From Eledone cirrhosa (Eukaryota): a stretch of DNA of 46,265 nucleotides. The stretch is from NCBI GenBank assembly GCA_964016885.1, contig CAXHJY010000341.1, positions 1 to 46,265 of the forward strand, given 5' to 3'. Shown piece by piece: positions 823 to 43,037 of this stretch. The position numbers were made by a program, and so were the translations under genes. Positions within the stretch are counted from its first letter, which is position 1; each line of letters starts with the position of its first letter. Below the pieces are notes generated by a model. That model did no database searches. It worked only from the letters and a program-made list of their open reading frames with translations, and was not told the origin of the DNA.

Positions 823-865
823 ACGGTGCTGACGATAGCTAATAAGCTTGAAACTAGTACATCGT
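823..865 (+). ncRNA. Minimal type I hammerhead ribozyme motif (Penelope-like-element type)
   Basis: ACGGTG-CTGACGA-T AGCT aata AGCT T-GAAA-CTAG-TA-CATCGT. Stem I ACGGTG/CATCGT (one G-U), intact core, 4-bp stem II, palindromic CTAG loop III. Confidence 0.8.
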
Positions 866-1661
866 TCCTTTGTCAGTGTTGAACAAAAGAGCAACGATGG
901 TTGCTATACACTGTACGGCTTAATTCGGGATGTTTGTTTACAATCACACCGAGCATTATAATAAATGTTCGGTAAATCCATACGCACATATATATATATG
1001 TGTGCATGTATGTATATGTATATACATACTACTGTACGTCTGTATACATATATGTATGTACGTATACATACTTATATATACATATATATATATATATATA
1101 TATATATATATATATAAGGGAAATAACTCAAAGTTACCATTGCCATGCATTTGGATCACTATTATATGCATGATACATCCTTATTTAATTGAATCATACA
1201 TCCGTAGTTGCACACTTATTAATAAAGTTGTTCCTTGCCTCCAAAGATCAGACTGTGCTTTCACAAAATATTTCTATTATCTCCGGACATTTATGCTTAA
1301 ATTTTGGAAATTATCTTCCCTTTCTTTTCTGCTAAAAATTGCCGCTAGGTTTCCACTTTCTGTCTTCGACGCAAAGGAAAGAGTTGATAAATTCAATGTT
1401 TAATGAATATGACATTTAGTGTCACTCACTTTATCACAATTATCTCATTCTATTTCTTTACCTAACTTCCTATTTACCAACATCTATCTGTCTCTATTTA
1501 TCAATCAATCCACCAATCCCTCTATTAATCTCTCTCTTTCTCTCTCTCCATCTCTCTCTCTCTCTCTCTCTCTCTCTCTCTCTCTCTCTCTCTCTCTCTC
1601 TCTCTCTCTCTCTCTCTCTTTATATATATATATATATATATATATATATATATATATATAA

Positions 1662-1813
1662 AACGAAGGAAATGTGGTAAGGAACCAGGTGGACCATAAC
1701 ACACCAAAGTAGTCAATACTTAGGGTAGTAAGGGTGGGTAATAGGAACGAGTAGGACCCCGACGACTGAGCTCAAGCCGTTTCGACGGCTAATTCTGGAC
1801 TCAGTCCAGAATT
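1662..1813 (-). mobile_element. Repeat family B ((TA)n-associated, hammerhead 3' half, fold-back end)
   Basis: AACGAAGGAAATGTGGTAAGGAACCAGG...CCGTTTCGACGGCTAATTCTGGACT, then C and the inverted AGTCCAGAATT. Confidence 0.8.
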
Positions 1814-2015
1814 ATATATATATAGTTGAATAAATAAACAGAGAACAAAAAATAGAGAGGCAGTACAACTGGTATGGTTTTTAGTTTCACGTTTGAGAGT
1901 GAGGGGTGGTGGTATATATATATATATATATATATATATATATATATATATATATATTGTTGATTTAAAACTGCACTATTCACAAGTGTATTTTAACCTT
2001 CATATCATGTCTTCC

Positions 2016-2086
2016 TATTTTATCTGACGAAAACACAAATGTTATTGCATGATTATATTTGTTTTTGAAATGCGCATAATAAAATA
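2016..2086 (+). ncRNA. Minimal type I hammerhead ribozyme motif
   Basis: TATTTTAT-CTGACGA-[AAACACAAAT...ATTTGTTTTT stem II]-GAAA-TGCGCA-TA-ATAAAATA. Perfect 8-bp stem I and palindromic hexaloop TGCGCA. Confidence 0.85.
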
Positions 2087-2320
2087 CATGGAACTCTCTT
2101 AACCATCTTTTGATCTTATATATATATATATATATATATATATATATATATATATATATATAGCTAGCTAGCTATCTAGCTATCTCTCTATCAATCTTTC
2201 TATTTCTCTCTCTCTCTCTCTCTCTCTATATATATATATATATATATATATATATATATATATATATATATATATATATACATATATATAGAGAGAATTC
2301 TAGAATATATATAGGATTCT

Positions 2321-2887
2321 AGAATACCAAAACAACTCTTTTATGGAGAGTTAGTTAAAGGAAAACGACCGCCACATAAACCAAAAAAGAGATATAAGGA
2401 TTCCTTGAAAGCCTCTTTGAAAGACGCTAACATCTCTGCTGATACATGGGAAAATGTTGCTGCTGATCGTAATAAATGGAGAAAGACTGTATATGAGGGG
2501 AAAGTTGTCTTTGGGGCATCTCGAATCGCACACGAGAAAGTAAAGAGGGATTTGAGGAAAGGCATTACTGTTGCATTTCCAGACAGCGAAGGCTCTTCTA
2601 GGGTGCTGACATGCAGCGTCTGTGCGAGACTCTGCCTCAGCAAAGCTGGACTCGAAAGTCACCTTCGCAGTCATAAAGTGGTTGAATACCAGGCTGCTGT
2701 TGGAGATGCTACTCATCATGCTTGCCAAGCATGTAAATCAGCAGGAGGGCTCAAACGACATGCAAAAGTACATGAACTCCAACCACAGCCGGCTACTGCC
2801 AATGAATGTCTTGCTTGCCAACTCTGTGAAAGACATTTTAGATGATTGGCTGGGCTAAAAAGCCACATTCGATCGCAGCACTGTTAA
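2321..2887 (+). pseudogene. 3' fragment of an RTE-clade non-LTR retrotransposon ORF with C2H2 zinc fingers
   Basis: Reads RIPKQLFYGELVKGKRPPHKPKKRYKDSLK...TWENVAADRNKWRKTV, a typical RTE post-RT region. Followed by CSVC..HLRSH, CQAC..HAKVH and CQLC..HIRSQH, with a premature stop at 2843-2845. Confidence 0.85.
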
Positions 2888-2963
2888 TTGTTATCGCGTG
2901 TGTGTGTGTGTATAGATGTATGTATGTGTGTGTATATATATATATATATTATTATTATGCTTT

Positions 2964-3149
2964 GCGGTGAAATGGCAGTATCGGCAGAGGGTTGCACGCC
3001 ATGCTTTCTAGCATAGCTGCGCCCCTTTATGGTCTGAGTTCAAATCCCGTTGAGGTTAACTTTACCTTTCATCCTTACGGGGTCGATAAAATAAAGTACC
3101 AGTATTACACTGGGATAATTGCTGGCCTTGTGCCAAAAGTAGAAACAAC
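2964..3149 (+). mobile_element. tRNA-derived SINE-A, full length (short subfamily)
   Basis: A-box-like TGGCAGTATCGG, B-box GAGTTCAAATCC, body GGGGTCGATAAAATAAAGTACCAG, tail GGCCTTGTGCCAAAAGTAGAAAC. Resembles octopus tRNA-derived SINEs. Confidence 0.9.
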
Positions 3150-40461: not shown

Positions 40462-40972
40462 CGTGAGTGGCCAGCATGGCTCGATTGTATGGGTCTCCTC
40501 TAAGTATACACCTACAGAATTGAAGAGCAAAACTATGAGGGAGCAATTTCCCCAGCGATCAGACTCCTCTGGCTTTTTGTGCTCTTTCTCCACGAGTGAC
40601 CCACTGAGTTCCCCTCTCCATTATTGAAGCGTTTATTTTGTTTGATTGTTTAAATGTTTGTTGTTATTTTAATTTTTTTTATAACATATTTACACACAAA
40701 ACCCCATATTTTCTCGGCCTGCGCCGTCATTATTGTTTTCTTGATGTAAGTCTTGTATGGCTTATAAAAAAAAAGACTGTTATTTTTGTGCGATTTCTAC
40801 ACGAATGAGCCTGAGAGTCTTCTCACCTTTGGGGAATTTGTTATGTTTGTTTTAAATGTTTATTTTCTTAGTCTCTGTTATGAATTTTATTTTACACGAA
40901 AAACCCCCACACTGTATCGTGTTGTACCGTCTTTAATGTTTCCTTAATGTGAGCCATGTGTGGCTAATAAAG
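40462..40972 (+). mobile_element. Two stacked family G LINE 3' ends
   Basis: VASMARLYGSPLSIHL-like ORF remnant, then two related UTR tails ending at ~40770 (GGCTTATAAAA) and 40972 (GGCTAATAAAG). Confidence 0.55.
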
Positions 40973-41629
40973 ACATTACATTCCAGTATAAATTTTATAA
41001 CATCCTAATTGCTATTTATTACCACCATGAAACTGGAAGGCACGAAGAGCAAATTCCTGAGGTTATGTTTAACCTACTACAAATATATATCGAGAGTATT
41101 CAACTAACCAAAGCGTTAACGAATAAGCATTACAATAATAAAAATATTTTAAAAACTTAATTAATTTTTTTACATTTCAACAAACGCAATCATAATCTAC
41201 ATCATAGAATATATATCTTTTAAATCATTAAAAATTTTGTATCATTAAGAAATGTTTGAGGAAACGAATCTAGTTCTATGCTTCTTTTGGAAGGTGAGAG
41301 TAACACAGGATTCCTTGTGCCTAACTGAAGAACAAATATCTCAAAGGACTTAGTAGATCATTGTATTCGTCGATGGTTCAATATATTTTAATATATTAAT
41401 TACGTACATACATAATACACACATGCTCACTCACACGCGCGTGAGCAATATGTATGCGTGTGTATATATATATATATAGTAAATATATTTTACATTGAGA
41501 TATTTTCATACTTGTAATTGGATAATATTCGATATTACCCACATTATATATTTATATATAGATACCATTATATATATATATATATATATATATATATATA
41601 TATATATATATATATATATATATATATAT

Positions 41630-41750
41630 AACGAAGGAAGTTTGGTAAGGAACCAGGTGGACCTTAGCGCACCAGAGTACTCGATGCTATGTGTAGTAGA
41701 GTGGGTAATAGGAAAAGAGTCAGGACCCCGACGGCTGAGCTCCGGCCGTT
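41630..41750 (-). mobile_element. Repeat family B2 fragment
   Basis: AACGAAGGAAGTTTGGTAAGGAACCAGG...GAGCTCCGGCCGTTT between (TA)n tracts. Confidence 0.8.
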
Positions 41751-41828
41751 TATATATATATATATATATATATATATATATATATATATATATATTATTT
41801 ATATATATATAAATTCATATATATATAT

Positions 41829-42022
41829 ATACAAATGAATATATGATAGGGATAAACAGTGATACAAGTATACATGTGTTTGCATTGCAAATGACCAAGT
41901 TAGCTAGATTGAAAAATAGTAATTAAAATTAGTATTTTTCAATCTAGCTAACTTGGTCATTTGCAATGCAAACACATGTATATTTGTATTAGTGTTTATC
42001 CCTATCATATATTCATTTGTAT
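41829..42022. repeat. Near-perfect palindrome (~95-bp arms, essentially no spacer)
   Basis: ATACAAATGAATATATGATAGGG...GAAAAATAGTAATT aa AATTAGTATTTTTC...CCCTATCATATATTCATTTGTAT. Confidence 0.9.
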
Positions 42023-42491
42023 TACACGGCTCAGAAATATTCCTTTCTTTGAGCTATTTAATTGTAAAAGACTATTTGAGTTTATAACTCTATATATAAT
42101 ATATATATATATACATATATAAATAAATAAATATATAGATATATGTATATGTATATGTATATATATATATATATATATATATATATATATATATATATAT
42201 ATATATATATATATATATATATATATATATATATATATATATATTGTGTGTGTGTGTGTGTGTGTGTGTGTGTGTATGTAAATATATATATGAATGGATA
42301 TATATATATGTGTGTGTATGTGTGGGGCTGGAGCTCACAAGACAAATACAACTGGAAATCTAAATCCTTATAGTTTCATATATATGTATATATAAATGTA
42401 TATATATATGTGTGTGTGTGTGTATTTACATGTATATGCTTGTATGTATATGTACATTATACATTTATATATACATAAAATGTATATATGT

Positions 42492-42745
42492 GGAGGCATG
42501 TGGCCTAGTGGTAAGGCTGTTGGACTTACGATCATAATGTCGTGAGTTCGATTCCTGGGTTGCGTGTTGTGTTCTTGAGCAAAACACTTCATTTCACGTT
42601 GCTCCTATAGCTGCAGGTTTAATCGTACAATGGACTGGTGTCCTGAGCAGGGGTTGTTTTGTTCTCTCAGTCACTTCACACCATGAAACCGGGATAAGCA
42701 ACGGCCAAACGAGCCTACTGGCTTAAGACAAACTTTAGACATTTT
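42492..42745 (+). mobile_element. tRNA-derived SINE family E
   Basis: A-box TGGCCTAGTGG, B-box GAGTTCGATTCC, core GTGTTCTTGAGCAAAACACTTCATTTCACG. A related head fragment lies at ~18617-18710. Confidence 0.8.
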
Positions 42746-42837
42746 TTAATCTAAATAAAGTCTCTCTATATATATATGTGTGTATATATTTGTATGTGTA
42801 TATATATTATATATATATATAATATATATATATATAT

Positions 42838-43037
42838 AAACAGAAATAACAACACAATTGGTACAGTATATGGAAGGGATATATTAGGTTAACGCTTGAT
42901 ATAGCAGGAAGAGGTTCTTAACGTTTCGGACGCTAGTCCTTCATCAGAAGAAAGAATGAGAAATAAGATAGATTGAGGGGACGGGCGGAATGGAATTGGA
43001 AAAAATGTCTTTAGATAAAAATAACAGATCCATTCAT
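42838..43037 (-). mobile_element. Repeat family C with intact hammerhead motif
   Basis: AAACAGAAATAACAAC...GGTTAACGCTTGATATAGCAGGAAGAGG...CCATTCATAT. Further fragments occur near 32065-32085 and 43672-43725 (opposite strand). Confidence 0.75.
42915..42952 (-). ncRNA. Minimal hammerhead ribozyme motif (CTGATGAAG...CGAAACGTT type)
   Basis: Reverse complement TTCTT-CTGATGA-A-GGAC tagc GTCC-GAAA-CG-TT-AAGAA. Stem III is reduced to the palindrome AACGTT. Confidence 0.75.

What the first reader, a model, noticed from the sequence alone, without database searches (positions are those of the whole stretch)
823..42952. Loop III is palindromic in every minimal motif but differs in sequence (CTAG, TGCGCA, TATATA, GTAC, AACGTT, GAGCTC)
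Seen: six different self-complementary sequences occupy the same position between GAAA and the cleavage site. Known: minimal PLE hammerheads with a one-pair stem III are proposed to act as dimers in which the palindromic loops pair. Inference: selection preserves palindromy rather than sequence, so the loop could act as a family-specific pairing code that restricts dimer cleavage to like partners.
Basis: partly seen in the sequence, partly recalled or inferred. Interest (0 to 1): 0.75.

Follow-up and report, generated by a model that had tools for sequence, protein, structure and literature searches.

The report
Palindromic dimer hammerheads of Penelope retrotransposons
The window holds leftover ends of several Penelope-like jumping-gene families, each with a small self-cutting-type RNA motif whose short third stem is usually self-complementary, likely because two copies must pair to cut (already in print); the stems are reused between families and are not universal, so they are unlikely to be a selected family code.

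Summary
Eight complete hammerhead motifs at 823-42952 have a self-complementary helix-III insert: CTAG, TGCGCA, TATATA (x4), GTAC, CG. Two of the six listed loops are mis-drawn. AACGTT includes core bases (the insert is CG). GAGCTC sits in a longer-stem family whose ten window copies lack the 5' core. In a 1.19-Mb genome sample, 17 of 24 short-insert families are palindromic and 3 more pair through G.U (3.7 expected). In one superfamily G.U-compatible variants outnumber the mirror A.C variants 28,792 to 145, which points to selection on RNA pairing. This is the published double-hammerhead requirement (Perreault 2011; Cervera and de la Pena 2014). The code idea fares badly. Four families use TATATA and two use CTAG. 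Stem I alone excludes 250 of 253 family pairs, and the loop is the only barrier in 2. TATATA and TATGTA, which pair with each other, switch repeatedly on a tree. A 20,776-copy family has a non-palindromic G-purine-purine-C insert. Window copies are solo or inverted remnants with no partner to pair with. Cleavage was not tested. The scan reached the same verdict before on another piece of this genome (e1-8664523).

The parts
823..865 (+). Type I hammerhead, insert CTAG (854-857), U.U at base of helix II; solo remnant in a 177-bp stretch between (TA)n runs
   Evidence: family of 14 copies in 13 loci of sample plus window
2016..2086 (+). Type I hammerhead, insert TGCGCA (2071-2076); shares stem I with the TATATA/TATGTA superfamily
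   Evidence: 21,454 genome matches; RT-like ORF 1.26 kb upstream of a copy in L135
7068..7128 (-). Type I hammerhead, insert TATATA (7078-7083); left arm of an inverted pair
7259..7319 (+). Type I hammerhead, insert TATATA (7304-7309); right arm of the inverted pair, opposite strand to its twin so not a dimer partner
21765..21820 (-). Hammerhead of an unrelated family (different stems I and II) that also has TATATA (21772-21777); this copy has C3 changed to T
31216..31281 (-). Type I hammerhead, insert TATATA (31226-31231), another subfamily of the 7267 superfamily
31795..31833 (-). Type I hammerhead, insert GTAC (31802-31805)
42915..42952 (-).
   Evidence: features as in PMC4209133
22885..22925 (-). 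Decayed copy of the CG family, 5' core broken
11720..11822 (.). Inverted pair of 3' halves of the GAGCTC family (GAAA, 4-bp stem, 9-nt loop with central GAGCTC, UC site); 5' core missing. Eight more copies near 1773, 11427, 17497, 17655, 20222, 20273, 29339, 41742
   Evidence: complete motif with U3-A8 core in L044, L094, L135, L177
35563..35613 (+). Hammerhead-like motif with CAGAAGA core and a long non-palindromic helix III; counter-example; duplicate at 38180-38230

Best explanation
These are type I hammerhead motifs on truncated ends of several likely Penelope-like retroelement families, and their short helix-III inserts are self-complementary likely because cleavage would need two like copies folded as a double hammerhead. 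In that fold A15.1-insert-U16.1 of one copy pairs antiparallel with the same stretch of the other, and the stem I strands swap between copies (established: Forster 1988, as described in PMC4209133). Any self-complementary insert meets this need, so lineages drift between palindromes through G.U intermediates (inferred). Partner choice would come mainly from proximity in a tandem transcript and from stem I (inferred). Loop differences between families are a by-product, not a selected code. Shown: motif anatomy, enrichment, G.U over A.C asymmetry, loop reuse. Inferred or predicted: dimer formation, cleavage, drift path.
For: Motifs are real: 122 versus 1 control; 137 versus 2 with exact core. 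Palindromy at inner positions, which cannot pair in a monomer: 17 of 24 families, plus 3 G.U. Superfamily of 77,628 matches (control 16): TATATA 21,599, G.U variants 28,792, A.C mirror variants 145, TGCGCA 21,454; 71,845 of 77,628 can pair fully. TATATA and TATGTA switch at least 6 times on well-supported branches of a tree built without the loop. TACGTA is present, 2 of the first 100. Families with a helix III long enough for a monomer often have non-palindromic loops. Predicted homodimer is 12.6-19.9 kcal/mol below two monomers for the six short-insert window motifs with a monomer fold; the CG motif cannot close helix III alone. Stem I excludes 250 of 253 pairs, the loop is the sole barrier in 2. 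PLE context: RT plus GIY-YIG ORF beside CTAATTAG motifs and GIY-YIG ORF beside GAAC motifs; TATATA- and TGCGCA-linked ORFs are 44% identical to each other and match that RT; (TA)n targets and inverted pairs (described for PLEs in PMC8557442).
Against: Only 28 of 152 sampled copies have a same-strand, same-family partner within 5 kb, and none of the eight window motifs has one within 5 kb. The within-loop shuffle null is much less extreme (mean 12.1, P about 0.001). The 199:1 ratio counts copies, not events; the independent events number about 6-10. Published in vitro activity of PLE dimers is low. An Anolis PLE hammerhead cleaved only with protein and cleavage was not needed for insertion in vitro. 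The L120 and L135 ORFs have no Pfam hit, and the window's CTAG, GTAC, CG and 21815 families were not tied to an ORF. No cleavage or expression was shown here.
Confidence: 0.8

Rival explanations
1. Loop III is a selected partner code: co-active families diverge in loop sequence so that only like RNAs form a cleaving dimer, as HIV-1 DIS palindromes bias partner choice.
For: TATATA/TATGTA and TGCGCA lineages share stem I and each have over 21,000 copies, yet their loops mispair; predicted penalty +12.5 kcal/mol for TATATA x TGCGCA. CGCG and CATG families are a second such pair. Adjacent same-strand motifs are of different families in 33 of 51 cases, so mixed transcripts are possible.
Against: Loop is the sole barrier in only 2 of 253 pairs; TATATA is used by 4 families, CTAG and CAATTG by 2 each; no over-dispersion. 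The commonest loop, TATGTA, pairs fully with TATATA (-0.5) and has one mismatch with TGCGCA (+6.2). A heterodimer would cut each RNA at its own site, so no cost is evident (inference).
Confidence: 0.08
2. The motifs work as monomers with help from the element's protein; palindromy is ancestral or serves another RNA-RNA contact (such as template pairing in the RNP) rather than catalysis.
For: Protein-assisted cleavage of an Anolis PLE hammerhead (PMC11167929); the successful non-palindromic G-R-R-C family; most copies are solo.
Against: A 2-nt insert cannot close helix III in a monomer; recurrent G.U and near-absent A.C still demand duplex pairing of the loop; dimer constructs cleave where monomers do not in S. 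mansoni and cleave better in axolotl.
Confidence: 0.09
3. Palindromes are a DNA-level or compositional artefact (AT-rich genome, TA repeats, fold-back during integration).
For: The genome is very rich in (TA)n; TATATA is the most reused loop; fold-back insertions are common.
Against: DNA-level processes are strand-symmetric and cannot give 28,792 versus 145 for reverse-complement-equivalent changes. GC-rich palindromes (TGCGCA, CCATGG, CGCG) are common. Both nulls are rejected.
Confidence: 0.03

Closest known systems
Minimal and short-helix-III hammerheads in pLTRs of metazoan Penelope-like elements (Cervera and de la Pena 2014, PMC4209133; passages and sections 5 and 9 read)
   Same: Type I layout, extra base after A9, palindromic 15.2-16.2 and loop 3, many divergent families per genome, mostly solo or opposite-strand copies, a U3-A8 core family, proposed dimer action.
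   Different: Far higher copy number here (about 100 per Mb in the sample versus thousands per genome there); inserts up to 8 nt; G.U versus A.C asymmetry and a G-R-R-C family were not seen in the parts I read.
Repeat-type hammerheads of Perreault et al. 2011 (PMC3088659; passages and Fig. S8 legend seen, figure itself not)
   Same: Fig. S8C tabulates the palindromic stem III and loop III of several ribozymes and says most could pair in a dimer.
   Different: Across species, not within one genome; no code is proposed in the passages seen.
Lunse, Weinberg and Breaker 2017, RNA Biol 14:1499 (not held; seen only as title and through reviews PMC6765202 and PMC6466107)
   Same: By title and reviews: small PLE hammerheads with palindromic, very short loop III cleave as dimers.
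   Different: Cannot say whether it tested heterodimers or tabulated loops; it may already cover these.
Metazoan non-LTR retrozymes (PMC7229834, passages; bioRxiv 10.64898/2026.07.22.740005, first fifth and passages)
   Same: Tandem 310-530-bp hammerhead repeats in the sample (L127, L035, L133); palindromic tetraloop and U.U helix II as in axolotl motifs.
   Different: The window copies are solo or inverted remnants, not tandem arrays.
HIV-1 dimerization initiation signal (PMC3187697, passages)
   Different: DIS selects a partner in trans for co-packaging; here pairing completes a catalytic fold, probably in cis, and stem I adds specificity. No homology is implied.

Membership tests
Type I hammerhead ribozyme | Core CUGANGA ... 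GAAA ... UH in type I order | tested here: met
   7 of 8 window motifs exact; 21815 has C3 changed
Type I hammerhead ribozyme | Helices I and II can form | tested here: met
   Stem I 5-8 bp; helix II folds, several with U.U or a bulge at its base
Type I hammerhead ribozyme | Match to Rfam hammerhead models | tested here: inconclusive
   None among the 150 best of 688 matches shown, which were microsatellite noise; 538 rows not shown
Type I hammerhead ribozyme | Site-specific self-cleavage | not testable with these tools
   No assay available
PLE pLTR min-HHR / short-helix-III HHR | Palindromic 15.2-16.2 and loop 3 | tested here: met
   8 of 8 in window; 17 (+3 G.U) of 24 families; not met by the G-R-R-C family
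PLE pLTR min-HHR / short-helix-III HHR | No loop 3 at all (strict min-HHR) | tested here: not met
   Only the CG motif; the other seven have 4-6-nt inserts, like the 'small palindromic helix III' variants
PLE pLTR min-HHR / short-helix-III HHR | Linked to an RT plus C-terminal GIY-YIG ORF | tested here: inconclusive
   Pfam GIY-YIG above cut-off for ORFs beside CTAATTAG and GAAC families. TATATA and TGCGCA ORFs link only by blastp (E 6e-9, 6e-7). CTAG(829), GTAC, CG and 21815 families had no same-strand ORF within 1.5 kb in the sample; no PLE ORF in the window
PLE pLTR min-HHR / short-helix-III HHR | 5' truncation, inverted copies, (TA)n targets | tested here: met
   Motifs lie in 160-430-bp stretches between (TA)n runs; 56 of 152 sampled copies have an opposite-strand twin
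Non-LTR retrozyme | Tandem 150-450-bp repeats each with a hammerhead | tested here: not met
   None for the window motifs; met by other families in L127, L035
Partner-selection palindrome (DIS-like code) | Loop sequence unique to, or over-dispersed among, lineages | tested here: not met
   7 colliding pairs versus 0.7-5.0 expected
Partner-selection palindrome (DIS-like code) | Loop mismatch blocks heterodimer function | not testable with these tools
   Only predicted energies

The most novel reading that the evidence does not exclude
Among co-active sister PLE lineages that still share stem I (TATATA/TATGTA versus TGCGCA; CGCG versus CATG), helix III has been driven apart as a DIS-like self/non-self code that stops one family's RNA, or its non-autonomous retrozymes, from completing another family's ribozyme. 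The G-R-R-C family would reach the same end with tandem purine-purine pairs, and the GAGCTC family with a 2+6+1 kissing loop.
Probability: 0.08. Interest if true: 0.7.

Novelty: new member of a known kind. Interest (0 to 1): 0.27.

Why it matters
As it stands it adds genome-scale, strand-asymmetric sequence evidence that PLE hammerheads were selected to pair as dimers. That is useful because their measured activity is low and their role is unsettled. It also supplies a natural stem-I-matched, loop-mismatched pair for a clean heterodimer test, and a natural non-palindromic family. A selected code would be a new self-recognition device among retrotransposons, but the data lean against it.

Tried and rejected
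Rfam scan of the window was swamped by microsatellite matches and showed no hammerhead in the rows listed. A search for the GAGCTC family with a standard CTGANGA core gave 73 matches with unrelated upstream junctions; the true core proved to be U3-A8. GAGCTC at 36282/38899 has no GAAA before it and no copy in the sample; rejected as a hammerhead loop. CTGATGA hits at 12210/12287 are the antisense of a fold-back, not a type I core. The motif-like hit at 44128 and one-mismatch singletons were dropped: the relaxed scan gave 25 control hits. First clustering merged families through inverted neighbours and was redone. TATGTA as CpG decay of TACGTA was rejected because TACATA would be equally common. 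Sequencing-run search: no RNA holder listed; read laying not used. Lunse et al. was not held. A paper search for hammerhead + retrotransposon + heterodimer + stem III found 0; searches listed nothing on a loop code, but the library lacks most subscription papers. Perreault supplements held no searchable text for Fig. S8; the Cervera 2014 supplements were not opened and may list such loops.
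Full report
1. Observation. Their inserts between GAAA and the UH site are CTAG, TGCGCA, TATATA (four copies, two unrelated families), GTAC and CG, all palindromic. 'AACGTT' is the CG insert plus four core bases. 'GAGCTC' is the centre of a 17-nt helix III in a different family; its ten window copies start 3' of the 5' core. Complete copies in L044, L094, L135 and L177 have a U3-A8 core, a variant known from S. mansoni PLEs. Two further window motifs, with a CAGAAGA core, have a long non-palindromic helix III. The short-insert motifs lie in 160-430-bp stretches between (TA)n runs. 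The only near twin pair (7120/7267) is inverted.

2. Genome context. The window is G000:C368:1-46265 in a 3.0-Gb assembly. Loose patterns give 205,223 matches with a 6-nt insert (control 40,873) and 278,633 with a 4-nt insert (control 37,980); these overlap and include chance hits. I fetched 119 ten-kb stretches at round-number positions on 16 large contigs. A scan that sets the helix III register by stem I pairing alone found 122 motifs versus 1 in the reversed control, and 137 versus 2 with a relaxed helix II. Of 20 nearby ORFs scanned, 6 had a Pfam match. One beside tandem CTAATTAG motifs has GIY-YIG above cut-off and a weak RT match, and one between GAAC motifs has GIY-YIG. ORFs upstream of TATATA (L120) and TGCGCA (L135) copies have no Pfam hit, but are 44% identical to each other and match the first ORF's RT region. 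They show a YRDD motif and a cysteine linker that I recall as Neptune-like; that label comes from no call. The window has no PLE ORF.

3. Is palindromy enriched? I took clusters with an exact core and a 4-, 6- or 8-nt insert as units: 24 families after merging three pairs of related clusters by hand. Odd-length, 2-nt and longer inserts and mismatched-core singletons were left out. One family had TGCA and AGCA once each and was scored as TGCA. Scoring inner positions only, 17 are palindromic, 3 pair through G.U and 4 do not pair. Redrawing from pooled bases gives a mean of 3.7 (0 of 50,000 reach 17); shuffling within each loop gives 12.1 (P about 0.001).

4. Is pairing, not sequence, conserved? 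In the superfamily with the ATRAAA stem I arm there are 77,628 matches (control 16). TATATA has 21,599 and TGCGCA 21,454. TRTRTA has 50,391, so 28,792 are G.U variants. TAYAYA has 21,744, so 145 are A.C variants. The two variant sets are reverse complements, so DNA-level mutation should make them equally. The first 100 matches, counted by eye, were TGCGCA 35, TATGTA 28, TATATA 27, TACGTA 2, TACGCA 2, three singletons and three of another family. Copies are not events, so I built a tree with the loop removed: 84 rows, 2 dropped as short, 40 regions hand-picked for diversity, 233 columns, bootstrap not fully settled. TATGTA needs 10 changes, at least 6 forced by well-supported branches, and the TGCGCA group sits on one long branch. 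Conversion between copies could add to that count. Reading: G.U loops were repeatedly carried by amplifying lineages and A.C loops were not, as duplex pairing predicts.

5. Is it universal? No. One family with a single G-C pair has 20,776 matches. Among the first 100, counted by eye: GAAC 74, GGAC 17, GAGC 5, GGGC 1, three singletons; none is palindromic and all have two inner purines. In a dimer these would be tandem purine-purine pairs (inference). Families with a longer helix III often have non-palindromic loops.

6. Is it a family code? In a double hammerhead both stem I arms swap between copies as well as helix III, so specificity has two sources. Among 253 pairs of 23 families (one likely false positive dropped), stem I alone excludes 250 and the loop alone 244. 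The loop is the only barrier in 2 pairs (TATATA/TGCGCA, CGCG/CATG), and 1 pair of related families is fully compatible. TATATA serves four families, CTAG and CAATTG two each. Collisions among ten 6-nt families number 7, against 0.7 (uniform) and 5.0 (composition-matched); a selected code would give fewer. Secondary-structure energies, without tertiary contacts or concentration terms: homodimers lie 12.6-19.9 kcal/mol below two monomers. Heterodimer penalties are +12.5 for TATATA x TGCGCA (loop), +11.6 for the two window TATATA families (stem I), +6.2 for TATGTA x TGCGCA and -0.5 for TATATA x TATGTA. Only 28 of 152 copies have a like partner on their strand.

7. Mechanism. A tandem PLE or retrozyme transcript carries two like motifs. 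Helix III is too short for a monomer. The copies fold as a double hammerhead, with the inserts pairing antiparallel and stem I strands exchanged, and each is cut after H17, possibly with protein help. Self-complementarity is the condition for a homodimer, and lineages wander among palindromes through G.U states. Shown: anatomy, enrichment, asymmetry, reuse. Inferred: dimer, cleavage, drift. The window copies are probably inert remnants.

8. What is known. Perreault 2011 tabulated palindromic loop III sequences (Fig. S8 legend). Cervera and de la Pena 2014 list the palindromic loop 3 and the extreme variety within each genome. Two reviews repeat this and cite Lunse 2017 for dimer cleavage; I could not read that paper. 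I found no printed loop-code proposal; the nearest working example is the HIV-1 DIS.

9. Verdict. Real, largely known, with a good within-genome test of selection on pairing; the code inference is unlikely (about 0.08). Interest 0.27.

Noticed in passing
L044, L094, L135, L177; window 11720-11822 and eight other copies: Abundant family (60 strand-hits in 1.19 Mb) with a U3-A8 core and a helix III of 4 bp + 2 nt + GAGCTC + 1 nt. GAGCTC is kept in 40 of 44 copies and is the G.U form GAGTTC in 3, while the flanking bases vary. The 2+6+1 geometry recalls a retroviral kissing loop (recalled).
   Followed up: partly
L037, L141, L147 and 20,776 genome matches: PLE family with a GIY-YIG ORF about 200 bp upstream of a hammerhead whose insert is G-purine-purine-C in all four combinations and never palindromic in the first 100.
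   Followed up: partly
window 35563-35613 and 38180-38230; 17 copies in 12 loci: Hammerhead-like family with U4 replaced by A (CAGAAGA) in every copy found, long helix III, PLE-like ORF downstream in L094.
   Followed up: partly
window 12150-12340; L157, L166, L174: Family with a 3-bp helix III stem and an 8-nt loop whose centre is CTAG, ACTAGT or the G.U form ACTGGT; the window copy is a fold-back with an altered 5' core.
   Followed up: no
L127:281-3381, L035:5602-6069, L133:6638-7694, L108:6464-6986: Tandem hammerhead repeats of about 310 (11 copies), 467, 528 and 522 bp; retrozyme-like; the L133 set sits before an RT plus GIY-YIG ORF.
   Followed up: no
G000 matches (e.g. C2:166911593, C3:248802726, C7:7118469): Several GAGCTC-family 3' halves are joined directly to the 5' half of another family's hammerhead, making chimeric motifs; may be insertion or template switching, or selection by my pattern.
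   Followed up: no
window 35413-36300 and 38030-38920: A segment repeated at 2617-bp spacing with matching repeats and ORFs; recent duplication or assembly artefact.
   Followed up: no
window 2315-2845 +: 176-aa open frame with a weak C2H2 zinc-finger match that looks like the C-terminal end of a LINE ORF (recalled); unrelated to the hammerheads.
   Followed up: partly
window 10388-10802, 18127-18489, 32852-33066: Tandem repeats of 99, 120 and 111 bp; the last two share sequence and look SINE-derived.
   Followed up: no
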